In this document: one piece after another, positions 10,360 through 23,275 of the stretch | Layout: each line of letters begins with the position of its first letter | Position numbering within the stretch: the first letter of the stretch is position 1 | Origin: an uncultured Aminicenantes bacterium | GTDB taxonomy: Bacteria > Acidobacteriota > Aminicenantia > UBA2199 | DNA length: 64,000 bases | NCBI GenBank assembly: GCA_965195285.1 | Contig: CBDAFS010000031.1 | Coordinates: 4,371 to 68,370 of the forward strand | Direction of reading: 5' to 3' | Program-made: the position numbers and the translations under genes | Notes under the pieces: model-generated | The model's database searches: none | Told to the model about the DNA's origin: nothing | The model's input: only the letters and a program-made list of their open reading frames with translations

Positions 10360-10370
10360 ATCGCTTTTCC

Positions 10371-10943
10371 ATGAAGATCCTGCTGGTCAACAATGCCGAG
10401 AAGGGTATCGCTGATTACTGTATTCCCATTGAGCATATAATCCGGCATCAATTCGTTACCTTCAAACGGATAGAATATTCGGAAACACTGAGTGCCGATC
10501 TGTCGATTTACCACGGATTCATCCTGACCGGCTCGCCCTGCGGAAATGACATCGTGGAGCATCACCTGCCCTATTTCAAATGGATCAGGGAGATAGACAA
10601 GCCTGTACTGGGAATCTGTGCCGGTCACCACATCATCGGGGCCCTGTTCGGTTCCCGGTTAATTCGGGATGTTGAAAGCGAATTGGGTGATTCAACTATT
10701 ACGATTATCAAGCCAGACCCCATTTTCAATGGACTGGAACAGGAAACGCTGGTTGCTCAGGCTCATCATGATGCCATCACCCTTGCGGACAATTTTGTTC
10801 TGTTGGCCGGTTCCGAAAGGTGTCCGGTCCAGGCCATGAAGCATGAAACCCGTCCTCTCTACTCCACCCAGTTCCACCCCGAAACCCGCAATCCCCGAAT
10901 CATAAAAAACTTCCTGGATATAGTTATGAAATTGGGGGAGTGA
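10371..10943 (+). CDS. Class-I glutamine amidotransferase (GMP-synthase subunit-A-like)
   Basis: 190-aa ORF with nucleophile elbow GICAGHH and C-terminal FHPE (His-Glu of the triad). No synthetase domain is attached. Confidence 0.8.
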   Translation: MKILLVNNAEKGIADYCIPIEHIIRHQFVTFKRIEYSETLSADLSIYHGFILTGSPCGNDIVEHHLPYFKWIREIDKPVLGICAGHHIIGALFGSRLIRDVESELGDSTITIIKPDPIFNGLEQETLVAQAHHDAITLADNFVLLAGSERCPVQAMKHETRPLYSTQFHPETRNPRIIKNFLDIVMKLGE

Positions 10944-11113
10944 AAATGCAAAAATGGTATGCGCCCCCCTTTATTGTCTCCAGTATGTTAACATATTGCT
11001 AACTTACTGGTTATTTGTCAAGATAAAAATGTTGCAACGTAAAACCTCACCCTCCATAGTAAGGCTATACAAGGTTTTAAGGGTTTTCAAATTGAAAATT
11101 TGTGAAAATTATT

Positions 11114-11129
11114 TGGCACAAATCTGGCA
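11114..11129 (+). promoter_or_regulatory. Sigma-54-like -24/-12 element (TGGCAC-N5-TGGCA), or tandem TGGCA half-sites, upstream of the SIR2-like gene
   Basis: TGGCACAAATCTGGCA read directly. The GG and GC are spaced exactly as in consensus TGGCAC-N5-TTGC, with one mismatch (TTGC to TGGC). A near-identical copy lies at 12681-12696. Confidence 0.35.
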
Positions 11130-11145
11130 CAGTTAATATATATTA

Positions 11146-11174
11146 TTGACAATGTGCACGCCCTTAATTAAAAT
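11146..11174 (+). promoter_or_regulatory. Sigma-70-type promoter candidate (TTGACA-N17-TAAAAT) upstream of the SIR2-like gene
   Basis: TTGACA at 11146-11151, a 17-nt spacer, then TAAAAT at 11169-11174. About 105 nt upstream of ATG 11279. Confidence 0.45.
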
Positions 11175-11278
11175 ACCAGTAGGGAATTATTAATTCTCCT
11201 TCATCAATTATTGCAATAGCTTCTTTAACTGAATATAAATTAATTGATTAATATTATTATTTCTTAAAGGAGAGATAT

Positions 11279-12298
11279 ATGGGAAACAGTGAACCAAAAA
11301 AGCGATTCATTACTTATCTACTCGGTGCAGGTGCAAGTGCTAATGCTCTTCCGGTTGTTAAAATAATTCCTGAAAGATTAAGTCAGTTTAGGGATGATGT
11401 CAAAAAATATTTGAATCCAAAAAAAGAAATTATTACTCAACGTGATATCGATAAGAAGCCTCATCAAATAATAACAGATATAGATTGGCTTTTAGAACAA
11501 ACAAAAAAACATATGAGTATTGATACATTTGCCAAGAAACTCTGGACACGAGGGAATCGTGAAGAATTAATGAAATTGAAAAAGCTATTGTCGTATTTTT
11601 TTATTTTTGAACAGGTGGATAAATTGGATATGAGGTACGACAATTTCATTGCGTCTATCATTGATTCAACAAAAAAACCTTCGAATGATGTTCGGATTTT
11701 AAATTGGAATTATGATTATCAATTCGAAAAAGCTTATTCTGAGTATCAGGGGTATTCAGATTTGGATATCATTCAAGAGAAGTTAAACGTTGCTCCCTCT
11801 CCAAATAAAACCAATCCAGATTCAACTCAAGGGTTTTTAGATAAATTATGCCTTGTGAAATTGAATGGTACAACTTCGTTTAAGACTATGGAAGGTGAAA
11901 TACTAAATCTCATCAAGGATTTAAAGAAAAGAAAGGATGAGATCGAATTTAAGAAAATATTTGAATCTCATTACAATACGCCTGATTCTCATTCCCTTGT
12001 CACTTTTGCTTGGGAAAAAAATCAATTACCAAGCCACCAAAAAGTTCAATTCATTTTAAATCATACTGTTGCAATGGTTATCATTGGATATTCCTTCCCT
12101 CAGTTTAATCGTGAGGTCGATAAACAAATTTTTAATCAGTTGCAAGGAACAGGAAAAAAGATTTATATTCAAGATTTAAATACAGATACAATTAAGGTAA
12201 AACTGAAAGGAGTTATGAAAACCAATGATTATTGGGATATTATTCCAGTAAACATGACCGATCAGTTTTTTATCCCTTTTGAGTTAGAAATCAAATAA
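11279..12298 (+). CDS. SIR2-like (SIR2_2/DHS-like NAD-binding fold) protein with Asn in place of the conserved His
   Basis: 339-aa ORF with RBS AAGGAGAG 7 nt upstream. The ordered motifs LLGAGAS (aa 14-20), NWNYD (aa 142-146), VKLNGT (aa 193-198) and VIIGYSF (aa 267-273) match the GAGxS..TNYD..KxHG..GYS layout of prokaryotic SIR2-like proteins. AbiH-like proteins have a similar layout. AT-rich island. Confidence 0.6.
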   Translation: MGNSEPKKRFITYLLGAGASANALPVVKIIPERLSQFRDDVKKYLNPKKEIITQRDIDKKPHQIITDIDWLLEQTKKHMSIDTFAKKLWTRGNREELMKLKKLLSYFFIFEQVDKLDMRYDNFIASIIDSTKKPSNDVRILNWNYDYQFEKAYSEYQGYSDLDIIQEKLNVAPSPNKTNPDSTQGFLDKLCLVKLNGTTSFKTMEGEILNLIKDLKKRKDEIEFKKIFESHYNTPDSHSLVTFAWEKNQLPSHQKVQFILNHTVAMVIIGYSFPQFNREVDKQIFNQLQGTGKKIYIQDLNTDTIKVKLKGVMKTNDYWDIIPVNMTDQFFIPFELEIK

Positions 12299-12316
12299 AA
12301 GAATTTAGTATCTCTT

Positions 12317-12586
12317 TTACAATTTAATATCAACTTTGGATTCATCAAGATATAAATCATCGGGGCATTCCAAACGAGCATACCAGCTTTCGTTCGGATG
12401 TTCTGGAAGTTCTCCCCATGATGTCCTAGTCTCAACAGGTGTCCCTAATTTCGACCTTTTGGGTTCTTTAAGCTTACATCCATGAGCTTCATAAATTTCA
12501 ACAGCTTTCCGAACTTTCTCCTCAATAGTTCCGCTTAGCCTTTTAACCAGGATTGAATCCAATCCTATTGTTTCATCACGACTCAT
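12317..12586 (-). CDS. Small acidic hypothetical protein (89 aa), convergent with the SIR2-like gene
   Basis: ORF with a strong RBS (AAGGAGG 5 nt before the ATG) and its own TTGAAA-N17-TAAAAT promoter. No recognisable family. Confidence 0.6.
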   Translation of the reverse strand: MSRDETIGLDSILVKRLSGTIEEKVRKAVEIYEAHGCKLKEPKRSKLGTPVETRTSWGELPEHPNESWYARLECPDDLYLDESKVDIKL

Positions 12587-12617
12587 TTTTCCTCCTTCTC
12601 TCCTGTTTTAAAATTTT

Positions 12618-12646
12618 ATTTTATAGAATATAACTAAATATTTCAA
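12618..12646 (-). promoter_or_regulatory. Sigma-70-type promoter (TTGAAA-N17-TAAAAT) for the 89-aa ORF
   Basis: Minus strand reads TTGAAA (12646-12641), a 17-nt spacer, then TAAAAT (12623-12618). Shares the 12-mer TTGAAATATTTA with the promoter at 19600-19628. Confidence 0.5.
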
Positions 12647-12680
12647 CATATGGGACTGCGCATTGAATATTCGAAAAAAC

Positions 12681-12696
12681 TGGCATATATCTGGCA
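12681..12696 (+). promoter_or_regulatory. Sigma-54-like -24/-12 element (TGGCAT-N5-TGGCA) upstream of the CHAT gene
   Basis: TGGCATATATCTGGCA read directly. It is the second copy of the motif at 11114-11129, embedded in a ~40-nt imperfect direct repeat (11091-11134 vs 12662-12700). No good sigma-70 -35/-10 pair was seen between it and the CHAT start. Confidence 0.35.
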
Positions 12697-12861
12697 CAAT
12701 TTGAAAGGTGCAGCAGTGCAAAGTCTGACTCCAGTCTATTTTATTAAACGTCATAAGAAGATTTGATCCCTTTTTTTTTACCATTCATGATATTGAAACA
12801 AAAGGATTTCTTAATTATAATTGATTTGAACGTAGTGAATGTTTACAAGGAGAGAAAAATA

Positions 12862-15800
12862 TTGAGTTGGCAAAAGATAATTCCATTTATTTTAATTTTG
12901 AATGTATTTCTTTTTTCTGAAGCCAGGAATAATTTGGATGAAGAATTATTTGTTGCAGTAAAATCAGGGAGTCTTGAAGTTGTACAGTCTCTAATAGAAA
13001 AGGGAGCTGATGTGAATACCAAAGATGAATGGAAGTTGACTCCCTTATTTTATGCTGTATGGAAAAATAAAACCGACATAATTTCATACTTGAAAAAGCA
13101 TGGCGGGATTATATCTAATAAGTCAAAGTTGGAAAAAGTTTTTGAAGCCGAAAAGTATATAAAAGAAGCTGCATTATTGGAGCGAGATTCCAAAATTGAA
13201 AATTCTTTAAATGGTTATATAAAGGCCTTGAAAATCTATGAGAAAATATTTAATAACAATCATGAAGAAATTGCATTACTACTTTTTAAATGTGCAACTA
13301 TATATTCAAAACTGAAAGACTATAACTCAGCTTTAAGCTATCACCATAAAGAAGTAAAAATTAATTTGGAATTATTTGGAGGAATGCATAAAAGTACTGC
13401 AATTAGTTATGGAAATATTGGATTTACATATAGGAATTTAAATCAATTTCAAGAGGCGATTTTAAATTTTAATAATGCAATTGTAATTCTGGAAAAAATT
13501 GATGAAAGCAATAATCTATTGAATATGCTATATAGGGCTATTGGTGATATTTATAAAATGATAAATAATGGCGAAAAGGCATTAAATTTTTATTCTAAAG
13601 CTTATATATCCCATATAATGTTATATGGAGAAAATAATGAAAGTGTTGCAGATATTTTACTTGAAATTGGGCTTGTAAATAAAAACAAAAACAATTTTAA
13701 AGAAGCGAATATTAATCTAATGAAAGCTCATACTATTTATGAAGAGCTTTTGGGGAAATGGCATCCAAAAATAGCTATCGTTTGTGAACATCTTGGATAT
13801 TTGAATGAATTTATGAAAAAATATAGTACTGCATTAGATTATTTCAATAAAAGTTTAGAAGTAAAGAAAAGAATATTGGGAGAGGATGACAAACTGATTG
13901 CTGAATCCTTTGAAAATATTGGAAGAATCTACCAATATTTAGGCAAACCAAATGAAGCTTCTGATTTTTTGAAAAGAACATTAGATATGAAAATAAAATT
14001 GTATGGGAAAAATCATATTCAAGTCATATATACATTAAATTCTCTGGGCCATTTAGCCAATTCTATTGGAAATCATGAAGAGGCGATAGAACATTTTCTT
14101 GAGGCATTAAATATACATAATAATATTTCTAGAGAAGATAAAACTCTTGTTGCTGGAATATACCGGAGTATAGGTGGTGTTTATAACAAGTTAAAGAAAT
14201 TTGATCTTGCACTTAATTATTTAAATGATGCACTAGTTATTCAAAAAATGCATAGTATTAATAAACCATCTGAATTATCATTGACTTACCGTATAATAAA
14301 AGATGTATATGCACGCTTAGACCATAAGAATAAGGATTTATTTTATCTGAAAAAAGAAGGACAGTTTTGCATGAAATATTTTGGGGAGAACAGTCTTCCT
14401 GTTTTTTGGATATATTATGGCATTGCAGTTTATTATTCTCAAATAGAGGATAATAGCAATGCATTAAAGTATTTAAATAAATCATTATATGTTCATGAAA
14501 AAATAAATCCAGAGTCAAATTGGGATACTGGAGATTTATATTTCTGGATTGGATTTAAAGAGTTCAATATTGATAAATATGATGATGCGATGAAGAATGT
14601 CAAGAGGGCATTGTTGATTTTTAATGGATTGAATAAGAGTAATAAAAATGAAATACAAATTGCTCAATGTTATGAGCTACTTGCTTTCATTTATCGTAGC
14701 TTAAATCAGAAAAAATTGGCACTTCAAATCTATAAGAATGCATATAAAATAAGGCAAAAGATTTATAAAAATGATGCTGAAAAGCTTGCACATGAGAATG
14801 TTCAAATGGGAAGTTTTTATGGTACATTGGGTGATATCAAATCTGCAAAAGAACACCACTTAAAGGCATTAAATCTTTTACTTAAAAATCATGATGAAGA
14901 CAATATTGATGTTGCATATTGTTATGAATGGCTTGGCAGGGCTTTAATGGTGAAGCAAAATTTTAAAGAAGCCCTCGAATATATAACAAAGGCACAGAAA
15001 ATTTATACAAAGATTTTTGGGGTGAATCATATAAAAATTGCAGAAATATATGGCGCATTTGGAACGATATACAGACATTCCAAAAAATATGAAAATGCTC
15101 TCAATGCTTATTTTAAAGCACTGGATATTTATGAAAAAAATTCTTCAAGTAAAAAATATTCCATTGGAGGGATCTATTTAGCTATTGGATTTAGTTATGA
15201 ATTAATAGGCAATCATAAAAAGGCAATTTCATACTTAGAGAGATGTATTGAGATGTTTGAATCAATTGAGAATAAAATGAGTTTATCAAGAGCTAAATTC
15301 TATTTGGCAGGTGCTTATGCTTTTTCAGAAAACCATGAAAATGCTATTCGAGAATTAGAGGAATCAATTAATATTAAAGACAGAATAAGATTTGAAATTC
15401 AAGATCCTACTCATAAAGAATCATTTTATGAAGATTATTTAGATAATTATCGTTTACTAATAAGAATGCTAATGAAAAAAAAGAAATACAATAGGGCTTT
15501 TATAAAAGCAGAACAATCAAAGAGTGTTGTTTTTGCAGATATGATGGCCAAAAAAGGTGCAAGGGATAATTTCGCAAAAAAAGATTCTAGATTCCAAGAT
15601 TTACTCAAGGAAGAATATGAGATCTTGAATAAAATAAATAAATTAAAAAATTTATTGAAAACACAGACAGAGAAATCTGATTTAACAAAACGAATGTTAA
15701 TTAACGCACAATCCCAGCTTTCTAACCTGCAAGATTTAATGTCAAAAAAATATCCAAGTTATTCAGAACTTTCTTATCCAAAGGAAATAACTGTTGAGGA

Positions 15801-17091
15801 AGCAAAATCATTTTTGAAGGATGATGAAACATATTTAAGTTTTTATATACTTAGTGATTATTCTGTAGTTTTTATTCTCACAAAAAATGATTTTAAAGTA
15901 CAGATGATCAATTTTGGAAAAGAGTATTTCCAAACCAAAATACCTGAATTAAAAAAACAAATAAAAACTTGTTTGAATAAACTTACTTTGTTTATGGGTG
16001 GAGTAAAATCTGCAATAAAGAAAAAGGATTATTATCCGGGACTCAGTAAGGAATTCTATAAAAACATATTTCAACCAGTAGAAAAACATATTAGGACAAA
16101 GAAATTAATTGTTTCTGCGGATGGAATTCTATACGGATTCCCTTTAGAAGCCCTGGTTATAGAACAAAAAGAGAAAGTATCATTTGGTGGTGAACTACAT
16201 TCTATCGAGAAGTGTAAGGATATGCAATTTAGAGGAGAAGCACCTCTATTTTCTGAATATAACAGTATGACTTTTTTAGGCGATAAGTATAATATATTTT
16301 ATATACCCTCACTCTCAACTTTAAAAATTTTAAGAACCGAAACCAAGACGAATGTCAATGTTGAAAATAAAGTAATTGCCTTTGCTGATCCAATATTTAA
16401 TGATGAGGACCCGAGGGTCAAAGGTACAGAAAAAAAAGCAACGCAATTGGTTGAGGGTCAATTATATGTAAATAGCAATACTGTACGGAGCTGGCCGCCC
16501 CATAGGTTACCAGAAACATCAGAAGAAGCAAAGATTTTTGTAAAAGAAATAGGCAAGGGTGATGTATATGTTGGAATTGAAGCAAATGAAAAGAGAGTAT
16601 GGGACAAGGAACTGTCTGATGCGAAATATATTTTATTCTCCACTCACGGTATATTGGGAACTGAAATTCAAAGAAGTGAAATGATCGAACCGGCATTGGT
16701 ATTATCATTGGTTGGAAATACGGAAGAGTATAACGGTCTTTTGGAAATGAGTGAAGCGGCAGGCCTTCGTTTGAATTCTGAGCTTGTTATTCTGGCAGCA
16801 TGTAATAGCGCAGGTGAAAGTGGAAAGGGTGGTGAGGGATTTGCTGGATTGGCCAGAAGTTTTATTTTTGCAGGGACCCAAGGGGTTATTGCTAGCCATT
16901 GGAAGATTGAGAGTATGGCTACAAAAAATTTGATTTCAATTTTGGGTGAAATGTTATCAAAAAATGATAGACGGCAGGCTTTTTTTAAGGCGAGAGAAAA
17001 ATTTAAGAGTGTAATTGGAAAGCTTAAATATTTTAATATATGTTATGCCCATCCATATTTTTGGTCTGCATTTGTTTATATTGGGGACTGA
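12862..17091 (+). CDS. Ankyrin-TPR-CHAT protein (caspase-like CHAT protease domain), probable signal peptide
   Basis: ORF open from 12763 (1442 aa). The best-supported start is TTG 12862 (AAGGAGAG 7 nt upstream), giving SWQKIIPFILILNVFLFSEA|RNN; the alternative is ATG 12787. Two ankyrin repeats (..LIEKGADVNTKDEWKLTPLFYAV..) are followed by about 20 42-residue TPR-like units. The C-terminal CHAT domain has His in FSTHGILG (CAC 16645-16647) and Cys in LAACNSAG (TGT 16801-16803). Confidence 0.9.
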   Translation: MSWQKIIPFILILNVFLFSEARNNLDEELFVAVKSGSLEVVQSLIEKGADVNTKDEWKLTPLFYAVWKNKTDIISYLKKHGGIISNKSKLEKVFEAEKYIKEAALLERDSKIENSLNGYIKALKIYEKIFNNNHEEIALLLFKCATIYSKLKDYNSALSYHHKEVKINLELFGGMHKSTAISYGNIGFTYRNLNQFQEAILNFNNAIVILEKIDESNNLLNMLYRAIGDIYKMINNGEKALNFYSKAYISHIMLYGENNESVADILLEIGLVNKNKNNFKEANINLMKAHTIYEELLGKWHPKIAIVCEHLGYLNEFMKKYSTALDYFNKSLEVKKRILGEDDKLIAESFENIGRIYQYLGKPNEASDFLKRTLDMKIKLYGKNHIQVIYTLNSLGHLANSIGNHEEAIEHFLEALNIHNNISREDKTLVAGIYRSIGGVYNKLKKFDLALNYLNDALVIQKMHSINKPSELSLTYRIIKDVYARLDHKNKDLFYLKKEGQFCMKYFGENSLPVFWIYYGIAVYYSQIEDNSNALKYLNKSLYVHEKINPESNWDTGDLYFWIGFKEFNIDKYDDAMKNVKRALLIFNGLNKSNKNEIQIAQCYELLAFIYRSLNQKKLALQIYKNAYKIRQKIYKNDAEKLAHENVQMGSFYGTLGDIKSAKEHHLKALNLLLKNHDEDNIDVAYCYEWLGRALMVKQNFKEALEYITKAQKIYTKIFGVNHIKIAEIYGAFGTIYRHSKKYENALNAYFKALDIYEKNSSSKKYSIGGIYLAIGFSYELIGNHKKAISYLERCIEMFESIENKMSLSRAKFYLAGAYAFSENHENAIRELEESINIKDRIRFEIQDPTHKESFYEDYLDNYRLLIRMLMKKKKYNRAFIKAEQSKSVVFADMMAKKGARDNFAKKDSRFQDLLKEEYEILNKINKLKNLLKTQTEKSDLTKRMLINAQSQLSNLQDLMSKKYPSYSELSYPKEITVEEAKSFLKDDETYLSFYILSDYSVVFILTKNDFKVQMINFGKEYFQTKIPELKKQIKTCLNKLTLFMGGVKSAIKKKDYYPGLSKEFYKNIFQPVEKHIRTKKLIVSADGILYGFPLEALVIEQKEKVSFGGELHSIEKCKDMQFRGEAPLFSEYNSMTFLGDKYNIFYIPSLSTLKILRTETKTNVNVENKVIAFADPIFNDEDPRVKGTEKKATQLVEGQLYVNSNTVRSWPPHRLPETSEEAKIFVKEIGKGDVYVGIEANEKRVWDKELSDAKYILFSTHGILGTEIQRSEMIEPALVLSLVGNTEEYNGLLEMSEAAGLRLNSELVILAACNSAGESGKGGEGFAGLARSFIFAGTQGVIASHWKIESMATKNLISILGEMLSKNDRRQAFFKAREKFKSVIGKLKYFNICYAHPYFWSAFVYIGD

Positions 17092-17127
17092 ATAATAAAA
17101 CTTTAATCTTTTGATGTATATCTAATC

Positions 17128-18600
17128 TTATTCTTTTGTTCCTTTTTTCTCTATCATTGTTTCAATATTGGCTGCAATTCTGTGTATACTCATTCCTACA
17201 ATAGCAAATCCAAAATTCAGAAAAACACCGGTGTTAAGAAAGTATAAATAGCCAATATATCCCAAGCCAACCAAAATAATGAGAGATACAAGAACCTGAG
17301 CCAATAGTGATGATAGGTATAAAAATGCATAGGCAGCCAAAATAATAACAATTATTTCAAATAAAAGATTTATCCATCGTGGAGGTGGGGTTGGTTGTTT
17401 TTTGGTTAAGATTGTGTTTATGGCATTTCCAAGAATGTAAATTCCAGCCATTTCTCCAACAGGGGTTTGATGGATATCTCCAACATCCGGGCTTGAATTT
17501 CCGATAATTATGATTTTCTTTTTGATGAAATCCTTATAATATGGTAATTGATCAAACTTGATGTTAATCTGAAAAAGATTTCCTTTACTTAAATCAGTTA
17601 TTGTTTGATCTTGGTTTCTAAATTGGGAAGGAATTAATGAATAGCGAATTCTTTGCAAATATATAAAGTGTTTGTCATCAGTAACTTTTATTGTTTTTCC
17701 ATTTCGAAGAGTTATTGTTGATTTAAAACTTTTAAATCTATTCTGATTTGATGATAATATCTCTTTTTCCAAATCGAATAAAACATTAATATTTCCATCG
17801 ATAGCAAGTAATACAGTTAAGATGGGAATGCCCCATAGTATTTTCTTTGATCCATTGTTATCCACATAGGTGCTGTATAGATTCCAGTAACGGACAATGT
17901 CATCTCTGTGAGTTGCAGATACCCTGGGAACAACTCTGTAAAATTTCCTGATATTATTGTTATAGTTTATTCCTTCCTCAAATAGATCGCTATATTGATT
18001 CTTTTTGAGATCACACTGGACGCCAATTCTTTGGGGGAATATGATTTTTGTTATGTTATTTTTATTATCATGAAGGATATTTTCAAGGACACTTCGCAAT
18101 TTCTGATCAGCGTCTTTATCACTGGATTTATCTTCTAATAATATATCTAATATAATCACTTTTGCCATACCTTGATAGGCAGTTTCCAGAATCGAAGCAA
18201 GTTTATCCCTTGGAGTAATTAATGGTTCTCCCCAGTCTTGATAGGTTTCATGATCAATATCAACAAACAATATTGGAGATGTCTTTATTTTTTGTTTTTC
18301 TTGAACTGCTTCTTTGGCTTCAGCTCTAATAAAATGATCAAATAATTTATCAATAATGCTTTCCCCTAGACTTGTATGTTCCAAATAGTGCATGGATAAA
18401 GCAATAACGATACCTATTATGATATTTATAAAAAAATGGATTCTTTTCTTTTTATTGAACTTGAAAAAGTTAAATGCATTATTAAATCCTTTGGAAATAA
18501 ATACAATAGTTTGAATAATTTTTCTTAGTAGGGAGGAAATAGTTTTAATACCTTGTCTTATTATTCCTCTTGATGAGGGAACTTTATTTTTTTGATTCAT
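17128..18600 (-). CDS. Stand-alone CHASE2-domain membrane protein (no output domain)
   Basis: 490-aa ORF. TM1 is IHFFINIIIGIVIALSMHYL. CHASE2-type motifs follow (ILFVDIDHETYQDWGEPL, VIILDILLED, IVRYWNL, KIIIIGNSSPDVGDIHQTPVGEMAGIYILGNAINT). There are three C-terminal TM helices, and the protein ends about 25 aa after the last one. Confidence 0.8.
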   Translation of the reverse strand: MNQKNKVPSSRGIIRQGIKTISSLLRKIIQTIVFISKGFNNAFNFFKFNKKKRIHFFINIIIGIVIALSMHYLEHTSLGESIIDKLFDHFIRAEAKEAVQEKQKIKTSPILFVDIDHETYQDWGEPLITPRDKLASILETAYQGMAKVIILDILLEDKSSDKDADQKLRSVLENILHDNKNNITKIIFPQRIGVQCDLKKNQYSDLFEEGINYNNNIRKFYRVVPRVSATHRDDIVRYWNLYSTYVDNNGSKKILWGIPILTVLLAIDGNINVLFDLEKEILSSNQNRFKSFKSTITLRNGKTIKVTDDKHFIYLQRIRYSLIPSQFRNQDQTITDLSKGNLFQINIKFDQLPYYKDFIKKKIIIIGNSSPDVGDIHQTPVGEMAGIYILGNAINTILTKKQPTPPPRWINLLFEIIVIILAAYAFLYLSSLLAQVLVSLIILVGLGYIGYLYFLNTGVFLNFGFAIVGMSIHRIAANIETMIEKKGTKE

Positions 18601-18611
18601 AATTTAAAAAT

Positions 18612-19580
18612 TTATTTTAATTGATGATTTATCATCTGTTGTTCCAAATGATTGTAATAATGCATAATCAAGATGATAAAAAGCTTTTTATTGTCATCTT
18701 GAAGTGATTTTCTATCCATTTCGTTTAGAATTAAATAACTCTTCCAATATAAATCAAATTCAGTGGGGTAAGTATCACTTATAAATTGTAAATATGATGC
18801 TCTTTTAAGCTTCTTTATAGTATCGTTCGATTCTTTATTTCCAATAGACAAAAGATCCTTTTTTATCAAATCTGATTGAGATTTGTCTAAAATTTTTAAA
18901 TAGTATTTATCAGTTTTTTCAATAGAATCTTTTTTGGTAACTTCCCAGGAGTAGATCCCTGAAGTTTTCAATTTTAATTCAACTACATTAGTTTTTATTG
19001 ATTTATGACCTTTTGTTGGAGTACTAAATTTAATTGTATCTGAATTATCTTTAATTACTATTTCTTCTGTATCATTATTATCCCAGGCAAATGTAATGGT
19101 ACTATCTGGCAGTAATGTTGCCCAATACCCAGGTTGAGGGAAAAAAGGTTCATCCTCCGCATTAATAATATCGTTTTCGCTCCTTGTGGCAAGGTTTCTT
19201 TTTTTATATCTTTCTTTTTCAAAGCCAATAAAAGAAGCAAGTTTTTTTAGGAATCCTTTTTTATCTTTAGGAGGATTATTTAAAATAATTATGGTTTTAG
19301 CATTTACTTTTTTTATTGATGTAAAAGGAGAAAGTTTTATCTTTAAGTTTTGGATCCCACTTTTTTGATAAATCTTATCGCCTTCAAAAAGTTCAGTCAT
19401 AGGTTCAGCCTTAAATTTTAAATTATTGGATCTCTGAACAACACAGTCTTTATCAAAACCACCCAGAAGTAAGGCAATTGGGTTTTTCGCATGAATTTCG
19501 GCACCTTGAATTATAAAAAAATAAAAAAATATTAAAATTAGATATAATTTATTTGATTTTTTTAAGAATGACTTATTCAT
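18612..19580 (-). CDS. Secreted hypothetical protein, N-terminal FecR-like beta-sandwich region (tentative)
   Basis: 322-aa ORF with RBS AAGGAGAGGAG and signal peptide LYLILIFFYFFIIQGAEIHA. The segment VVQRSNNLKFKAEPMTELFEGDKIYQKSGIQNLKIKLSPFTSIKKV resembles the FecR pattern. Sits 11 nt upstream of the CHASE2 gene on the same strand. Confidence 0.6.
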   Translation of the reverse strand: MNKSFLKKSNKLYLILIFFYFFIIQGAEIHAKNPIALLLGGFDKDCVVQRSNNLKFKAEPMTELFEGDKIYQKSGIQNLKIKLSPFTSIKKVNAKTIIILNNPPKDKKGFLKKLASFIGFEKERYKKRNLATRSENDIINAEDEPFFPQPGYWATLLPDSTITFAWDNNDTEEIVIKDNSDTIKFSTPTKGHKSIKTNVVELKLKTSGIYSWEVTKKDSIEKTDKYYLKILDKSQSDLIKKDLLSIGNKESNDTIKKLKRASYLQFISDTYPTEFDLYWKSYLILNEMDRKSLQDDNKKLFIILIMHYYNHLEQQMINHQLK

Positions 19581-19599
19581 TTCTCCTCTCCTTAACTAC

Positions 19600-19628
19600 A
19601 TTCTAAAAAAAATGATTAAATATTTCAA
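19600..19628 (-). promoter_or_regulatory. Sigma-70-type promoter (TTGAAA-N17-TAGAAT) for the FecR-like/CHASE2 operon
   Basis: Minus strand reads TTGAAA (19628-19623), a 17-nt spacer, then TAGAAT (19605-19600). About 20 nt upstream of the RBS. Confidence 0.5.
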
Positions 19629-19881
19629 TACTTAATAGTAATAATGTCTGAACTATAGAATAGCCAAGTTTTTTCTTGAAATAAATATTTATTTTTTATA
19701 TAAGAAACCTTATCTAAGCCTTTTAAACAAATAGTTTATCATGTGTCATATCTTTACCATGTCTATTAAGAATATTTAAAAAGATAAGGATCAAATCTTT
19801 GTTATTGAAAAAGGCTTGGGAAAGATTATCAGGCAACAAATAGAAATGTGTAAAGATTGGGCATACGGTGGGAATTGGAAT

Positions 19882-22800
19882 TTACATGTTGCGGCGGTAC
19901 TGGCCGCCCACCCGGTAGAGGGCATTGGTGATCTGGCCCAGGGAGCAGCACTTGCTCGCTTCCATCAGCTTTTCAAATATATTCTGATTCTTTTTTACCA
20001 CTCCCTGCAATTCGGCCAGCAGTTTCGGGGTGTTGTCGGCGTGTTTTTTTTGCAGGTGATCCAGCATGCGGATCTGGTATTTTTTTTCGGTTTCCGTGGC
20101 CCGGATCACTTCCTTGGGCATGATGGTGGGCGAACCCTCGGATGACAGAAAGGTGTTCACCCCGATGATGGGATATTCACCGGTCTGTTTCCGGTCTTCG
20201 TAATACAGGGATTCTTCCTGGATTCTGGACCGCTGGTAATTGGTCTCCATGGCCCCCAGCACTCCGCCCCGATCAGAAATGCGTTCAAATTCCGAAAGGA
20301 CTGCCTCTTCAACCAGGTCGGTCAGTGCTTCGATGATGAAGGAGCCCTGCAAAGGATTCTGGTTTTTGGTCAGACCGTATTCCCGGTTTATGATCAGCTG
20401 GATGGCAATGGCCCGGCGAACCGATTCCTCGGTGGGGGTGGTAATGGCCTCATCGTAGGCATTGGTATGAAGCGAATTGCAGTTGTCATAGACGGCATAC
20501 AGGGCTTGCAGGGTGGTGCGGATATCATTGAAATTGATTTCCTGGGCATGCAGGGATCGGCCCGAGGTCTGGATATGGTACTTGAGCAGCTGGGAGCGCT
20601 TGTCGGCATGGTATTTCAATTTCATGGCCTTGGCCCAGATGCGCCTGGCCACCCGTCCGATCACCGCATATTCGGCATCGATGCCGTTGGAGAAAAAGAA
20701 GGAGAGGTTGGGACCGAACCGGTTGATATCCATTCCCCGGGACAGGTAGTATTCCACATAGGTGAATCCGTTGGACAGGGTCAGGGCAAGCTGGGTAATA
20801 GGATTGGCCCCGGCCTCATCGATATGGTAACCGGAGATTGAAACCGAGTAAAAATTCCGGACATTATGATCGATAAAATATTCCTGGACATCACCCATCA
20901 GTTTCAGGGCAAATTCAGTGGAAAAGATACAGGTGTTCTGGGCCTGGTCTTCCTTAAGGATATCGGCCTGAACCGTACCCCGGACTCTGGAGATGGCCTC
21001 TTTCTTAATGTTTTCATAGATATCACGGGGAAGCACCTGGTCACCGGTAACCCCGAGCAGCATCAATCCCAGTCCGTTGTGTCCCCGGGGCAGCTTGCCC
21101 TGGTATTCGGGACGGGGCAGGCCTTTTTTCTGATAAATGGAATTTATTTTCTTCTGGACTTGTTTTTCCAGGCCGTTCTTTTTGATATGGACTTCACACT
21201 CCTGGTCAATGACCGCATTCATGAAAAAACCGGCCATAATGGCTGCCGGCCCGTTGATGGTCATGGAAACCGAGCTGCTGGAATCGGTCAGCCGGAAACC
21301 GGAATAGAGTTTCTTGGCATCATCCAGGCAGCAGATTGAAACACCCGAATTACCGATTTTGCCGTAAATATCCGGCCGTTGGGCCGGGTCCTCTCCGTAG
21401 AGGGTTACCGAATCAAAGGCAGTAGACAGGCGAACAGCCGGCTGGCCGGCTGACACATAGTGAAAACGCTTGTTTGTACGCTCCGGTCCACCCTCGCCGG
21501 CAAACATTCGGGTCGGGTCTTCTCCCTCCCGTTTAAAGGGAAACACGCCGGCCGTGTAGGGGAATTCCCCGGGCACGTTTTCCTGCAAATTCCATTTCAG
21601 GATGTCTCCCCAGGCCCGGTAGCGGGGCAGGCTGATCTTGGGGATCCGGGTGTGGGAAAGGGTTTCGGTATGGGTGGCGATTTTTAATTTTTGATCCCGG
21701 ACCTGAAAGTGGAAATATTCACCCTGGTAGGCCCGGATCTTCTTCTGCCAGTTTTTCAGGACTTCCCGGTTCTCGGAACTGAGGCCGGATTCGAATTTTT
21801 TGTAAAGAGCTGACAGGTGTTTTTCAAGGGAATTCTCGTCCTGTGAGCCGGATTCCTTCAGGGCTTCCCGGGATTGATGAATCCCGTAGAGTTTTTGAGC
21901 AATGTCGCTCTGTTCGGTTGCCCAGTCGTTGTATTTTTGAATTGAATCCACAATTTCGGACAGGTAGCGGGAGCGATTGGAGGGAATGATGGATATCCGG
22001 TCGGATATCTCTGCTTTCGGGTCATAGCCGGTTTTTAAACCGGTCCCGGTTTTTTCCACCAGTTTGTCCAGAGTGGTCCGGTAAAGGGTGTTGATTCCCG
22101 GATCGTAAAAATGCGAGGCAATGGTGCCAAAAACCGGGAGTTGTTCATCCCCGGTATCCCAGTTGCTGTGATTTCTCCGGTATTGCTTCCGCACATCCCG
22201 CAGCGCGTCCAGGGCACCCCGCTTGTCGAATTTATTGATGGCAATGATGTTGGCAAAATCCAGCATGTCGATTTTTTCCAGCTGGGTGCTGGCCCCATAC
22301 TCAGGGGTCATGACATACAGGCAGAGGTCGGCATAATCAGTGATTTCCGAATCGGATTGGCCGATGCCCGATGTTTCCAGGATGATTAAATCAAAGGCAG
22401 CGGCCTTTAATATATTTATTGCTTCCCGAATATGTCTGGACATGGCAATATTGGACTGACGGGTGGCCAAAGAGCGCATGTAAACCCGGTCGGATTCGAT
22501 GCTGTTCATGCGGATGCGGTCGGCCAGCAGGGCGCCGCCGGTCTTGCGTTTGGTGGGATCCACCGAAACAATGGCCACGGTTTTCTCCCGAAAATCATTT
22601 AAAAACCGGTTAACCAGTTCATCGATCAGGGATGATTTTCCCGAACCGCCGGTGCCGGTTATACCCAGAACCGGAACCGATGTTTTGGATGATATTTTTT
22701 TTATTTCATCGAAAATGGTTTTGTTTTTCTCCGGAAAATTTTCCGCGGCTGAGATGAGGCGGGCAATGGTCCGGGGATTTTTTTTCTTCAGATTTTCCAG

Positions 22801-23265
22801 ATAAGGTCTGATACCGGTCCCGGTGGGGAAATCACAGCGGGAGAGCATGTCATTGATCATGCCCTGGAGGCCCATTTCCCGGCCGTCATCCGGGGAATAA
22901 ATGCGTTCGATTCCGTATTGCTGGAGCTCTTTGATCTCATCGGGCAGAATGACTCCACCCCCGCCGGCAAAAATCCGTATTTGTTCCGAATTCGCTTGCT
23001 TGAGCATATCAACCATATATTTAAGGAATTCGATGTGCCCCCCCTGATAGGAAGTGATGCCAATGGCCTGGGCATCCTCCTGGATGGCACAATCCACGAT
23101 TTCCTTTACCGAACGGTTGTGTCCCAGGTGAATCACTTCACAACCCGAAGACTGGATGACGCGGCGCATGATATTGATGGCGGCATCGTGTCCATCAAAG
23201 AGCGAAGCAGCGGTAACCACCCGGACCTTGTTTTTCAATTTATAAATGTCTTGGGCTTTTTTCAT
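19882..23265 (-). CDS. icmF: Fused isobutyryl-CoA mutase (B12-binding domain, MeaB-like GTPase and mutase catalytic domain)
   Basis: ORF open to 23469, but it overlaps the upstream gene. ATG 23265 gives [30 protein letters not shown] (B12 domain), the P-loop [17 protein letters not shown], then a long methylmalonyl-CoA-mutase-like catalytic region. About 1127 aa, consistent with IcmF. Confidence 0.85.
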
Positions 23266-23275
23266 ATTCAGTCCA

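What the first reader, a model, noticed from the sequence alone, without database searches (positions are those of the whole stretch)
10950..19815. Sharp AT-rich ~8.9-kb island between a GATase gene and the icmF acyl-CoA cluster
By eye the composition drops abruptly just after the GATase stop (10943) and recovers just before the icmF stop (19882). Inside the island there are long A/T runs and AAA/AAT/ATT-dominated codons, against roughly balanced composition in the flanks. All five ORFs inside are conflict- or signalling-type: SIR2-like, an 89-aa unknown, Ank-TPR-CHAT, CHASE2 and FecR-like. None is housekeeping. I saw no integrase, transposase, tRNA or border direct repeat, so the acquisition mechanism is not evident. 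This is the most likely place in the window for an undescribed system.
Basis: partly seen in the sequence, partly recalled or inferred. Interest (0 to 1): 0.75.

Follow-up and report, generated by a model that had tools for sequence, protein, structure and literature searches.

The report
AT-rich island with envelope caspase-like module
A sharply AT-rich, strain-variable 8.9-kb insertion in an Aminicenantes genome carries a lone SIR2-like gene, an orphan 89-aa gene and a recurrent, uncharacterised three-gene set (secreted caspase-like protease, periplasmic MtxA-like protein, output-less CHASE2 membrane sensor) that probably works in the cell envelope.

Summary
Window 10950-19815 has GC 0.30 against 0.47 elsewhere. 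Its five genes have GC3 of 0.21-0.29 against 0.53±0.06, with sharp edges at the GATase and icmF stop codons. It is accessory. In three Aminicenantes relatives (icmF 78-96% nt identical) homology stops exactly at the icmF stop and different cargo follows. One relative resumes homology at the permease-Usp gene, so the slot is a hypervariable hotspot. No tRNA, integrase or border direct repeat was found.

The five genes are not one system. ORF3 (Ank-TPR-CHAT), ORF4 (stand-alone CHASE2) and ORF5 form a conserved module. In all 14 related loci with adequate flank, an ORF5-family gene abuts a stand-alone CHASE2 gene. In 13 of these a giant TPR-CHAT or WD40-caspase protein lies alongside. Fusion proteins link the parts, and all parts carry export signals. 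ORF5 is not FecR by HMM. It resembles MtxA, whose gene also precedes a CHASE2 gene.

ORF1 is a solo SIR2-superfamily protein with the catalytic His invariantly replaced by Asn. ORF2 is an orphan. No known defence system matches.

The most likely mechanism is a periplasmic sensor pair controlling a secreted caspase-fold protease. That mechanism is inferred, not shown.

The parts
10371..10943 (+). Class-I glutamine amidotransferase gene. It forms the left flank and has host-like composition, but it lies inside the variable slot relative to L005.
   Evidence: Pfam GATase 1.2e-23. GC 0.49 and GC3 0.59. No homolog in L005, where homology resumes at window 10361.
10944..11278 (.). Left junction and ORF1 upstream region. 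The GC drop occurs here. It contains a 21-nt motif at 11114-11134 (TGGCAC-N5-TGGCAC, with GG-N10-GC spacing) and a sigma70-like site at 11146-11174.
   Evidence: Logan contigs L001 and L002 break here with a 30-nt overlap at 11008-11037.
11279..12298 (+). ORF1, 339 aa. A solo SIR2-superfamily-like protein with GAGAS (res 16-20), WNYD (143-146), K-L-N196-G in place of the SIR2 'HG', and GYS..N..D (270-281).
   Evidence: 629 homologs, all unannotated. Invariant motifs. 20 of 30 members give weak SIR2_2 hits, best 3.3e-4. No PDB sequence hit and no PADLOC or PHROG hit. Relatives in Leptospira phages keep the motifs.
12317..12586 (-). ORF2, 89 aa. An orphan with no detectable relatives or domains. 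Whether it is a real gene is uncertain.
   Evidence: No Pfam, NCBIfam, PADLOC or PHROG hit. Not conserved next to ORF1 homologs or in module loci. Called as a gene in the Logan assembly.
12587..12861 (.). ORF2/ORF3 divergent intergenic region. It holds the second copy of the 21-nt motif (12681-12701), one arm of the inverted repeat (12758-12780), a sigma70-like site (12793-12821, 11 of 12 matches) and an AAGGAG Shine-Dalgarno sequence before the TTG at 12862.
12862..17091 (+). ORF3, 1409 aa from the probable TTG start at 12862 (the ORF is open from 12763). It has a signal peptide (12862-12924), Ank repeats (12946-13116), a long TPR array (~13321-15462) and a CHAT caspase-fold protease domain (16048-17088). 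The His codon is at 16645-16647 and the Cys codon at 16801-16803.
   Evidence: Pfam TPR_12 9.7e-84, CHAT 1.1e-39, Ank_4 2.1e-11. CHAT alone 4.8e-41. The dyad is invariant among the three CHAT partners. Start codon and signal peptide.
17128..18600 (-). ORF4, 490 aa. A stand-alone CHASE2 membrane protein: basic cytoplasmic N-terminus (11 K+R, 0 D+E in residues 1-51), TM1, an alpha/beta ectodomain, three C-terminal TM helices and no output domain.
   Evidence: Pfam CHASE2 9.1e-26, 91 bits against a 26.3-bit cut-off. 63 homologs, all CHASE2-only and 400-510 aa. AF2 model pLDDT 88.8, pTM 0.87. No PDB fold match. Charge count.
18612..19580 (-). ORF5, 322 aa. A secreted MtxA-like protein with a signal peptide, N-terminal beta domain, linker with conserved Arg133 (codon 19182-19184), Ig-like domain and C-terminal helical domain. 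It lies 11 nt upstream of ORF4 on the same strand, so the two are a likely operon.
   Evidence: Family of 228 representatives. AF2 model pLDDT 77. Top Foldseek hit is MtxA 4z29, E=7e-5. Always adjacent to stand-alone CHASE2. Conservation.
19581..19881 (.). ORF5 upstream region and right junction. It holds a sigma70-like site (19628-19600, minus strand) and the second arm of the inverted repeat (19777-19799). GC recovers at ~19815-19880.
   Evidence: Homology with three relatives ends at 19881-19883.
19882..23469 (-). icmF (fused isobutyryl-CoA mutase/GTPase). This is the conserved right flank and the anchor of the hotspot.
   Evidence: NCBIfam IcmF 1716.8 bits against a 1500-bit cut-off. 78-96% nt identity to Aminicenantes relatives.

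Best explanation
The segment is horizontally acquired, strain-variable cargo in a hypervariable slot of an Aminicenantes chromosome. The slot lies between the 3' end of icmF and the permease-Usp/GATase genes. It carries two unrelated items.

(a) ORF1 is a mobile, solo SIR2-superfamily gene whose catalytic His is invariantly Asn. ORF2 is an orphan next to it.

(b) ORF3, ORF4 and ORF5 form a conserved three-gene envelope module.

Shown for the module:
- An ORF5-family gene and a stand-alone CHASE2 gene are always adjacent.
- A giant repeat protein ending in a caspase-fold protease (CHAT or Peptidase_C14) almost always accompanies them.
- All three have export signals or an extracytoplasmic domain.
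- The ORF3 His/Cys dyad is intact.
- ORF4 has no cytoplasmic output domain.

Inferred mechanism:
- ORF5 (MtxA-like) and the ORF4 CHASE2 ectodomain form a membrane-anchored periplasmic receptor pair.
- Instead of driving a fused kinase or cyclase, as described CHASE2 receptors are annotated to do, the pair docks or gates the separately encoded, secreted Ank-TPR-CHAT protease.
- The variable repeat arrays (Ank/TPR here, WD40 elsewhere) select the target or ligand.
- Proteolysis in the periplasm is the output.
- The conserved Arg in ORF5's disordered linker is a candidate processing or contact site.

Whether the purpose is envelope signalling or inter-organism conflict is not resolved.
For: Island and hotspot:
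- Composition statistics.
- Nucleotide homology to L047 (96%), L005 (81%) and L003 (78%) ends at window 19881-19883. L005 resumes at 10361.
- Slot cargo differs: a PAS histidine kinase in L047; antiporter, EIIA-like, Usp-like and OmpA-like genes in L005; a toxin-antitoxin-like pair in L003.
- That cargo is absent from the window apart from distant paralogs.

Module:
- ORF5 family plus stand-alone CHASE2 are adjacent in the window, L054, L055, L056, L057/58, L059, L060, L064, L066, L068, L069 and the P0345 contig. L065 and L067 end before the CHASE2 position.
- The caspase-fold partner is verified by Pfam: C14 1e-7 to 2e-11, CHAT 4.8e-41 to 1.3e-52.
- L068 has both a C14-type and a CHAT-type partner.
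- Fusions: P0206 is CHASE2 plus an ORF5 module, with a topology that puts both outside. P0152 is TPR plus an ORF5 module. P0146 is an ORF5 module plus DUF4384.
- Signal-peptide-like N-termini occur on ORF3, ORF5 and the partner proteins.
- The dyad is intact.
- ORF4 topology and lack of output domain.

Precedents:
- mtxA is followed by a CHASE2-cyclase gene (PMC4439547), and MtxA is the top fold hit for ORF5.
- A secreted LysM-FecR protein precedes a CHASE2 kinase (PMC5192318).
- Caspase-CHASE2 fusions exist (PMC3501461, PMC8195603).
- Nostoc has a WD40-CHASE2-DUF928 cluster (PMC5587647).

ORF1.
Against: - No direct evidence of physical interaction, protease activity, substrate or signal.
- The MtxA match has low TM-scores (0.27/0.44) and no sequence-level support.
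- One locus (L069) has the CHASE2-ORF5 pair with no caspase-fold gene within 8 kb.
- Many of the 14 loci are related to one another (for example L054/L055 and L056/L059/L064), so there are perhaps 7-8 independent lineages.
- In the published caspase-CHASE2 fusions the caspase is predicted to be cytoplasmic, unlike here.
- Signal peptides were judged from hydrophobicity and charge, not with a dedicated predictor.
- The gene arrangement in the window (ORF3 convergent with ORF4) differs from the same-strand or divergent arrangements elsewhere.
- No mobility genes explain the acquisition.
- The donor is unknown. The closest module relatives (38-52% identity) sit in 57-65% GC contigs.
Confidence: 0.6

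Rival explanations
1. The whole island, or the triad plus ORF1, is an anti-phage or abortive-infection defence island. The CHAT protease and a SIR2 NADase act as cell-killing effectors triggered by infection.
For: - CHAT/caspase and SIR2 domains are typical of conflict systems (established knowledge; Kaur et al., PMC8195603).
- The island is accessory and AT-rich.
- One ORF1 homolog sits among HEPN/MNT, DUF2971 and Type ISP restriction genes.
- ORF1 relatives occur on Leptospira phages.
- The giant partner genes decay or vary between strains (L054 versus L055).
- Relative L003 has a toxin-antitoxin-like pair in the slot.
Against: - PADLOC finds no system. The only hit is an Ank-repeat match.
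- All three module proteins are extracytoplasmic, so they cannot directly sense cytoplasmic phage replication.
- No NTPase, nuclease or other sensor is present.
- ORF1 lacks the catalytic His that ThsA/DSR-type NADases need (requirement from established knowledge).
- ORF1 never co-occurs with the module.
- Slot cargo in other relatives is not defence-related.
Confidence: 0.2
2. The triad is a maturation or processing device for secreted or surface proteins, such as two-partner-secretion exoproteins. The CHAT protease would process cargo at the envelope, and CHASE2/ORF5 would serve as a membrane scaffold rather than a sensor.
For: - In the P0345 contig the order is TpsB (ShlB/POTRA) - TpsA (TPS domain) - TPR-CHAT - CHASE2 - 305-aa protein.
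- L068 has M48 and trypsin-like peptidase genes downstream.
- All parts are exported.
Against: - Only 1 of 14 loci has TPS genes.
- No secretion or exoprotein gene lies in the window's island.
- CHASE2 is otherwise known only as a receptor ectodomain (Zhulin 2003, as cited).
Confidence: 0.12
3. The island is ancestral core DNA of unusual composition, or an assembly chimera joining DNA of two organisms.
For: - No integrase, tRNA or direct repeats.
- The left edge coincides with a contig break in the Logan assembly.
- Other low-GC genes exist in the window.
Against: - Three relatives lack the genes at this position, with breakpoints exact to the base at the icmF stop.
- The independent contig L002 runs from DUF6125/icmF through all five island genes.
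- L001 extends 94 nt into the AT-rich DNA and overlaps L002 by 30 nt.
- Relatives also have AT-rich, but different, DNA in the same slot.
Confidence: 0.04

Closest known systems
MtxA and the downstream CHASE2-adenylate-cyclase gene of Magnetospirillum (PDB 4Z29; PMC4439547)
   Same: ORF5 and MtxA are both ~315-320 aa, with a signal peptide, a beta region, an Ig-like (Big) domain and a helical TPR-like domain. MtxA is the top Foldseek hit for the ORF5 model. In both cases the gene sits immediately upstream of a CHASE2 gene. The MtxA authors suggested a periplasmic sensing or mediating role.
   Different: No sequence-level similarity is detectable by profile search, and TM-scores are low. The MtxA partner carries a cyclase output, whereas ORF4 has none. 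No caspase-fold gene is reported for the mtx cluster.
LysM-FecR protein plus CHASE2 histidine kinase ('BiofilmReg' operon, Burkholderia; PA4035/36-type pair in Pseudomonas; PMC5192318)
   Same: A secreted accessory protein is encoded directly upstream of a CHASE2 membrane protein.
   Different: ORF5 matches neither the FecR nor the LysM HMM. That operon has a response regulator and kinase output. Here there is no two-component output, and a caspase-fold protease is the partner.
Caspase/metacaspase-CHASE2 fusion proteins (Trichodesmium erythraeum; EACC2-caspase-CHASE2; PMC3501461, PMC2853523, PMC8195603)
   Same: A caspase-fold protease is functionally linked to a CHASE2 ectodomain.
   Different: Those are single polypeptides with the caspase predicted on the cytoplasmic side. 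Here the protease is a separate, signal-peptide-bearing giant repeat protein, and a third, MtxA-like component is obligatory.
Nostoc punctiforme cluster of 2 WD40 proteins, a hypothetical protein, a CHASE2 sensor and a DUF928 protein (PMC5587647)
   Same: Probably the same kind of module. WD40 giants are partners in most related loci, and 2 of 55 ORF5-family members weakly hit DUF928.
   Different: That cluster was mentioned in one paragraph as lineage-specific. The paper noted no caspase domain, export signal or conservation. The window's version uses Ank-TPR-CHAT instead of WD40-C14.
TPR-CHAT (Csx29) of type III-E CRISPR 'Craspase'
   Same: A TPR array is fused to a CHAT protease with a His/Cys dyad (the Csx29 architecture is from established knowledge).
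   Different: No Cas7-11/gRAMP gene, CRISPR array or Csx30/31 is nearby. ORF3 has a signal peptide and Ank repeats and is paired with CHASE2/ORF5.
SIR2 defence effectors (ThsA, DSR1/2, SIR2-HerA; Pfam SIR2_2)
   Same: ORF1 shares the GAGxS, NxD and GYS..D motifs and gives weak SIR2_2 hits. It is mobile and is sometimes found in defence-type neighbourhoods.
   Different: It scores below the Pfam threshold and has no PADLOC hit. The catalytic His is invariantly Asn. It has no partner domain or partner gene.

Membership tests
Genomic island / region of genomic plasticity | Composition deviates from the host genome | tested here: met
   GC 0.30 vs 0.47. GC3, CAI and tetranucleotide distance are each >4 sd from the other genes or windows.
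Genomic island / region of genomic plasticity | Absent or replaced in close relatives between conserved flanks | tested here: met
   L047, L005 and L003 have breakpoints at window 19881-19883. L005 resumes at 10361. The cargo differs in each.
Genomic island / region of genomic plasticity | Integrase or transposase, tRNA target, flanking direct repeats | tested here: not met
   No tRNA, no such domains and no border direct repeats. The nearest transposase-like gene is at 36392-37372.
SIR2 / SIR2_2 (PF13289), for ORF1 | HMM score above the gathering threshold | tested here: not met
   15 bits against 24.5 (E=0.027). 20 of 30 relatives hit weakly, best 3.3e-4.
SIR2 / SIR2_2 (PF13289), for ORF1 | NAD-binding GAGxS and NxD motifs | tested here: met
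   G16-A-G-A-S20 and N144-Y-D146 are invariant in 30 sequences.
SIR2 / SIR2_2 (PF13289), for ORF1 | Catalytic His in the 'HG' motif | tested here: not met
   K194-L-N196-G197 is invariant, and is also Asn in the Leptospira phage relatives.
SIR2 / SIR2_2 (PF13289), for ORF1 | Rossmann-type SIR2 fold | not tested
Profile and single-sequence searches of PDB sequences gave nothing.
FecR (PF04773), for ORF5 | HMM match to the FecR domain | tested here: not met
   No FecR hit at E<=10 for ORF5. FecR is not among the 25 most-matched Pfam families listed for the 55 family members at E<=1.
MtxA-like periplasmic proteins, for ORF5 | Signal peptide + beta region + Big domain + helical TPR-like domain, ~315 aa | tested here: met
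   AF2 secondary-structure layout compared with the MtxA description.
MtxA-like periplasmic proteins, for ORF5 | Structural similarity to 4Z29 | tested here: inconclusive
   Top Foldseek hit with E=7e-5 and prob 1.0, but TM 0.27/0.44 and rmsd 8.5.
MtxA-like periplasmic proteins, for ORF5 | Sequence homology to MtxA | tested here: not met
   A profile of 55 members against PDB sequences does not recover 4Z29 at E<=10.
MtxA-like periplasmic proteins, for ORF5 | Gene adjacent to a CHASE2 gene | tested here: met
   Window and every related locus with flank. For MtxA, from the paper.
DUF928 (PF06051), for ORF5 | HMM match | tested here: inconclusive
   2 of 55 family members hit, best E=5.3e-4. ORF5 itself has no hit.
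CHASE2 receptors (PF05226), for ORF4 | CHASE2 HMM above threshold and flanking TM helices (1 + 3) | tested here: met
   91.4 bits against 26.3. AF2 helices at 49-73, 407-427, 430-456 and 463-483.
CHASE2 receptors (PF05226), for ORF4 | Cytoplasmic output domain (kinase, cyclase, GGDEF), as in described receptors | tested here: not met
   The protein ends ~7 residues after the last TM helix. All 63 relatives are CHASE2-only.
CHAT caspase-fold proteases (PF12770), for ORF3 | CHAT HMM and conserved His/Cys dyad | tested here: met
   137-141 bits against 24. H1295 and C1347 are invariant in the alignment.
CHAT caspase-fold proteases (PF12770), for ORF3 | Proteolytic activity | not testable with these tools
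   Requires biochemistry.
Type III-E CRISPR Craspase (TPR-CHAT/Csx29) | Neighbouring Cas7-11/gRAMP gene, CRISPR array and Csx30/31 | tested here: not met
   No such ORFs or repeat arrays in 10300-20000.
Known anti-phage systems (PADLOC-DB v2) | HMM match to any system component | tested here: not met
   The only hit is PDC-M72A at 1.6e-7, to the Ank repeats of ORF3. There is none for ORF1, ORF2, ORF4 or ORF5.

The most novel reading that the evidence does not exclude
The triad is an extracytoplasmic, NTPase-independent caspase switch. On sensing a foreign or damaged envelope component through its repeat array, the secreted CHAT/caspase protease would cleave the MtxA-like protein at the conserved linker Arg. 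The processed fragment would then act as the long-sought ligand of the CHASE2 ectodomain. With no enzymatic output, the four-helix membrane bundle of CHASE2 would itself be the effector, for example by permeabilising the membrane. That would amount to a periplasmic 'apoptosis-like' or immune module, and a first handle on what CHASE2 domains sense.
Probability: 0.1. Interest if true: 0.85.

Novelty: new variant of a known kind. Interest (0 to 1): 0.55.

Why it matters
In the papers read here (2015-2021), CHASE2 is described as an extracellular sensor whose signals are unknown or only presumed, and MtxA, despite a crystal structure, has no assigned function.

This island shows a recurrent arrangement in which a CHASE2 protein stripped of any output domain is always paired with an MtxA-like periplasmic protein. 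It is almost always paired as well with an exported giant caspase-fold protease. That points to three things. CHASE2 ectodomains may work with a dedicated periplasmic partner. Proteolysis may be one of their outputs. And bacterial caspase-like proteases, usually discussed as cytoplasmic death effectors, may also have an envelope-located branch.

It yields concrete, testable predictions about interaction, topology and a candidate cleavage site. It also documents a base-exact hypervariable hotspot downstream of icmF in Aminicenantes.

The island itself (AT-rich accessory DNA) is ordinary.

Tried and rejected
1. CHASE2 as a caspase-fold pseudo-protease that pairs with the CHAT domain. The high-confidence AF2 model (pLDDT 88.8) has no significant PDB fold match (best E=0.25) and no caspase hits. 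Dropped.
2. ORF5 as FecR. No HMM support. Kept only as a positional analogy.
3. ORF1 and ORF2 as a two-gene unit. An 89-aa gene follows an ORF1 homolog in L072 but is unrelated to ORF2.
4. ORF1 or ORF2 as part of the triad. No homologs in any module locus.
5. Inverted repeat 12758-12780 / 19777-19799 as terminal repeats of a mobile unit. My rough estimate for 20 of 23 matches in AT-rich DNA is near chance. The shared 12-mer is enriched in the window (6 sites at <=1 mismatch against 0.96 expected), but the other sites lie in unrelated coding contexts. Left as unexplained.
6. The sigma54-like 21-nt motif upstream of ORF1 and ORF3. It occurs only twice in the window, but the pattern was defined post hoc, there is no enhancer-binding protein in the island, and it is absent from the other loci fetched.
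7. Known RNA families in the island: none.
8. Plasmid carriage of ORF1 or ORF5: none.
It was re-run with A1.
10. Cargo of the relatives being present elsewhere in the window (rearrangement): only distant paralog hits.

Full report
**1. Observation.**
A 1-kb profile of the window shows GC 0.27-0.37 from 11 to 20 kb against about 0.50 on both sides. At 200-nt resolution the drop occurs at 10900-11099 and the recovery at 19800-19999. These points lie directly after the stop of the GATase ORF (10371-10943) and directly before the stop of icmF (19882-23469, minus strand).

Overall the island has GC 0.299 against 0.466 for the rest of the window. Per gene, island GC3 is 0.21-0.29 against 0.534±0.060 for 41 other genes. 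CAI, using the non-island genes as reference, is 0.57-0.58 against 0.69±0.026. The tetranucleotide distance of 2-kb windows is 0.042-0.061 inside against a maximum of 0.035 elsewhere. The deviation is therefore real and far beyond the window's own scatter. Milder low-GC patches exist at 5-8 kb and 36-41 kb.

No tRNA occurs anywhere in the window. The island has no integrase or transposase domain and no flanking direct repeat.

**2. Provenance and assembly.**
The flanking and island proteins occur with 100% identity in an independent Logan assembly of run ERR12308021. Contig L002 runs from the DUF6125 gene and icmF through all five island genes, which excludes a chimeric right junction. Contig L001 covers permease-Usp, GATase and 94 nt of AT-rich DNA. 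It overlaps L002 by 30 nt at window 11008-11037, so the left edge is an assembly-graph branch point there.

**3. Synteny.**
A scan of species-representative genomes with icmF found the closest relatives among Candidatus Aminicenantes MAGs. Nucleotide homology to L047 (95.9%), L005 (81.5%) and L003 (77.6%) ends at window 19882, 19883 and 19881, which is exactly the icmF stop codon. None of the five island proteins is encoded in these loci.

Downstream of icmF the relatives carry different cargo:
- L047 has an AT-rich gene for a PAS histidine kinase.
- L003 has an AT-rich HigB-like/XRE-type pair.
- L005 has about 5 kb with an antiporter-CBS gene and EIIA-like, Usp-like, OmpA-like and unknown genes.

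In L005 homology then resumes at window 10361, the end of the permease-Usp gene (80% aa identity). The GATase gene is absent from L005 even though its composition in the window is host-like. The relatives' cargo is not found elsewhere in the window, apart from distant paralog hits.

The locus between the icmF 3' end and permease-Usp is therefore a hypervariable slot whose content differs even between genomes about 96% identical in icmF.

**4. The five genes are not one system.**
Pfam confirms ORF3 as Ank + TPR + CHAT and ORF4 as CHASE2. PADLOC gives nothing except an Ank-repeat hit.

ORF5 has no Pfam or NCBIfam family. It does have 17 close relatives (~40% identity) and 228 representatives in an exhaustive profile search.

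The genomic contexts of these relatives are strikingly uniform. The ORF5-family gene directly abuts a stand-alone CHASE2 gene (45-54% identical to ORF4). Next to the pair lies a very large repeat protein, either TPR-CHAT (L056, L059, L064) or WD40 with a C-terminal Peptidase_C14 domain (L054, L055, L057/58, L060, L065, L066, L067). The C14 hits have E=1e-7 to 2e-11, above the gathering cut-off.

Starting from more distant stand-alone CHASE2 proteins (30-35% identity) gives the same picture with the gene order flipped:
- L068 has WD40-C14, a 152-aa gene, CHASE2, an ORF5-family gene (E=1e-61) and TPR-CHAT (E=1.3e-52).
- The P0345 contig has TpsB, TpsA, TPR-CHAT, CHASE2 and a 305-aa gene.
- L069 has CHASE2 and an ORF5-family gene (E=4e-89) with no caspase-fold gene within 8 kb.

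ORF1 and ORF2 have no relatives in any of these loci. The conserved unit is therefore ORF3 + ORF4 + ORF5.

Several loci are close relatives of one another, so the number of independent lineages is nearer 7-8 than 14. In their 57-65% GC hosts the ORF5-CHASE2 pair is also several GC points, up to about ten, below its surroundings.

**5. Anatomy of the module.**
*ORF3.* The TTG at 12862 is preceded by AAGGAG and a sigma70-like site. It is also the start chosen by the independent gene call (1409 aa). It yields MSWQKIIPFILILNVFLFSEA, a typical signal peptide. The partner giants in other loci also begin with signal-peptide-like segments. The CHAT His (STHG, codon 16645-16647) and Cys (AACNS, codon 16801-16803) are intact and invariant among the three CHAT partners.

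*ORF4.* All 63 relatives contain only CHASE2 and are 400-510 aa. The AF2 model (pLDDT 88.8, pTM 0.87) shows a basic N-terminal helix (11 K+R and no D/E in residues 1-51), TM1, an alpha/beta ectodomain and three C-terminal TM helices. The chain ends a few residues later, so there is no output domain. Foldseek finds no related solved fold (best E=0.25).

*ORF5.* The AF2 model (pLDDT 77) has a signal peptide, a small beta domain, a low-confidence helical linker, an Ig-like sandwich and a C-terminal helical domain. The best PDB match is the MtxA C-terminal domain, 4Z29 (E=7e-5; TM 0.27/0.44). The other hits are generic Ig-like domains.

The MtxA paper describes a 313-aa periplasmic protein with the same four regions. 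It states that mtxA is followed by a conserved gene with adenylate-cyclase and CHASE2 domains. No sequence-level link to MtxA or FecR is detectable, and 2 of 55 members weakly hit DUF928.

*Fusion proteins.*
- P0206 (988 aa) is CHASE2 plus an ORF5 module. Its hydrophobic segments and basic loops place both parts on the outer side of the membrane.
- P0152 is TPR plus an ORF5 module.
- P0146 is an ORF5 module plus DUF4384.

*Conserved linker Arg.* Within the ORF5 family, an Arg in the disordered linker is 89% conserved across 55 diverse members. It is alignment position 132, which is protein residue 133 because the alignment rows lack the initiator Met. It is followed by a hypervariable stretch.

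**6. Mechanism.**
Shown: the co-occurrence and fusions of the three components, their export signals and topology, the intact protease dyad, and the absence of a cytoplasmic output on CHASE2.

Inferred: ORF5 and the CHASE2 ectodomain form a membrane-anchored periplasmic receptor pair. This parallels MtxA with a CHASE2 cyclase, and the LysM-FecR protein with a CHASE2 kinase (PMC5192318). Here the output is not a fused kinase or cyclase but the adjacent secreted caspase-fold protease. Its interchangeable repeat arrays (Ank/TPR or WD40) would provide target or ligand recognition.

The known caspase-CHASE2 fusion proteins (PMC3501461, PMC2853523, PMC8195603) independently link the two domain types, although there the caspase is predicted to be cytoplasmic.

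The conserved linker Arg could be a cleavage site, since metacaspase-type enzymes cleave after Arg/Lys (established knowledge). It could instead contact the invariant acidic residues of the CHASE2 ectodomain. This is untested. Whether the biological role is envelope signalling, exoprotein processing (suggested by one TPS-linked locus) or inter-organism conflict cannot be decided from sequence.

**7. ORF1 and ORF2.**
ORF1 belongs to a family of at least 629 unannotated proteins, mostly named from Bacteroidota-type MAGs. The motifs GAGAS, WNYD, K-L-N-G and GYS..N..D are invariant. 20 of 30 members give weak SIR2_2 hits (best 3.3e-4), but ORF1 itself scores 15 bits against a 24.5-bit cut-off.

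The position of the SIR2 catalytic His is invariantly Asn. This also holds in the full-length relatives (26% identity) in three Leptospira LE1-type phage genomes. Homologs are solo genes in low-GC patches of their hosts, in one case among HEPN/MNT, DUF2971 and Type ISP restriction genes.

ORF1 is thus a mobile member of the SIR2 superfamily, possibly an NAD(-derivative) binder rather than a canonical NADase. Its fold was not tested. ORF2 has no detectable relatives or domains.

**8. Other signals.**
A 21-nt direct repeat (TGGCAY-N2-ATC-TGGCACA, with GG-N10-GC spacing as in sigma54 promoters) lies 148 and 164 nt upstream of the ORF1 and ORF3 starts. It occurs nowhere else in the window or in the other loci fetched.

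A 23-nt inverted repeat (12758-12780 / 19777-19799, 87% complementary) brackets the triad. Its 12-mer core is enriched in the window, but the other copies lie in unrelated contexts.

Both signals are weak, post hoc leads for shared regulation. No Rfam family is present in the island.

**9. Comparison with what is known, and novelty.**
The island as such is an ordinary AT-rich accessory segment in a hotspot without visible mobility genes. The component families CHAT and CHASE2 are known. Pairwise links have been reported: MtxA with CHASE2, FecR with CHASE2, and caspase-CHASE2 fusions. A Nostoc WD40-CHASE2-DUF928 cluster was mentioned once in passing (PMC5587647).

I found no description of several features in the searchable literature:
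- the three-part module as a conserved unit;
- its output-less CHASE2 subfamily;
- the obligatory MtxA-like partner;
- the exported caspase-fold protease.

I class it as a new variant of a known kind: a CHASE2 sensory system with a periplasmic accessory protein. Interest is moderate (0.55). The mechanism is inferred, but it offers a concrete route to the unknown function of CHASE2 and MtxA and to an envelope branch of bacterial caspase-like proteases.

Noticed in passing
window 11114-11134 and 12681-12701 (+): A 21-nt direct repeat, TGGCAC/T-N5-TGGCACA, with sigma54-like GG-N10-GC spacing. It lies 148 and 164 nt upstream of the ORF1 and ORF3 starts. These are the only two copies in the window, and there are none in the other loci fetched. 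It may be a shared promoter or operator. No enhancer-binding protein is encoded in the island.
   Followed up: partly
window 12758-12780 and 19777-19799: A 23-nt inverted repeat (87% complementary) brackets exactly the ORF3-ORF4-ORF5 module. The core 12-mer AAGATTTGATCC has 6 sites at <=1 mismatch in the window against 0.96 expected, but the other sites are in unrelated coding sequence.
   Followed up: partly
window 10371-10943: The GATase gene has host-like composition but is missing at this position in relative L005. There, homology stops at the end of the permease-Usp gene (window 10361). The variable slot is therefore wider than the AT-rich part.
   Followed up: partly
window 11008-11037: The two Logan contigs covering this region (L001, L002) break here with a 30-nt overlap, at the left edge of the island. 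This is an assembly-graph branch, possibly from co-existing strains with different slot content.
   Followed up: no
window 36392-37372 (-): A low-GC gene encodes an IS200-like Y1 transposase domain fused to a DnaA-type C-terminal HTH. It is the only transposase-like gene seen in the window and lies 17 kb from the island.
   Followed up: no
window 5588-7075 (+), 7127-7825 (-), 38676-40610 (+): Other, milder low-GC genes: a 495-aa protein with no Pfam family, a small TPR protein, and a 644-aa TPR protein with a weak Peptidase_M10 hit. Low-GC accessory genes seem common in this genome.
   Followed up: partly
L003 4902-6036 (-); L047 1466-3294 (+); L005 13612-18755: The same slot downstream of icmF holds a HigB-like + XRE/DUF4065-like pair in L003. 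It holds an AT-rich PAS histidine kinase in L047, and antiporter, EIIA-like, Usp-like and OmpA-like genes in L005. This marks a base-exact hotspot at the icmF stop codon.
   Followed up: partly
L073 4998-6032 (Leptospira phage LbrZ_5399, KF114879.1): Full-length ORF1 relatives (26% identity, E=2e-17) occur in three LE1-type Leptospira phage genomes. They are annotated as hypothetical and keep GAGAS, WNYD and LNG.
   Followed up: partly
L054 versus L055 (contigs carrying the identical ORF5-family protein P0012): Two contigs sharing much of their gene context differ in the giant WD40-caspase genes. One is split into 558-aa and 263-aa pieces, and a second 1410-aa copy is reduced to a 154-aa remnant. 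This suggests rapid turnover of the protease partners.
   Followed up: no
window 17128-18600 (ORF4 model m06d279c7dff6): A high-confidence AF2 model of a CHASE2 protein has no significant match among solved structures (best Foldseek E=0.25). The CHASE2 ectodomain fold appears to be unrepresented in the PDB copy searched.
   Followed up: yes
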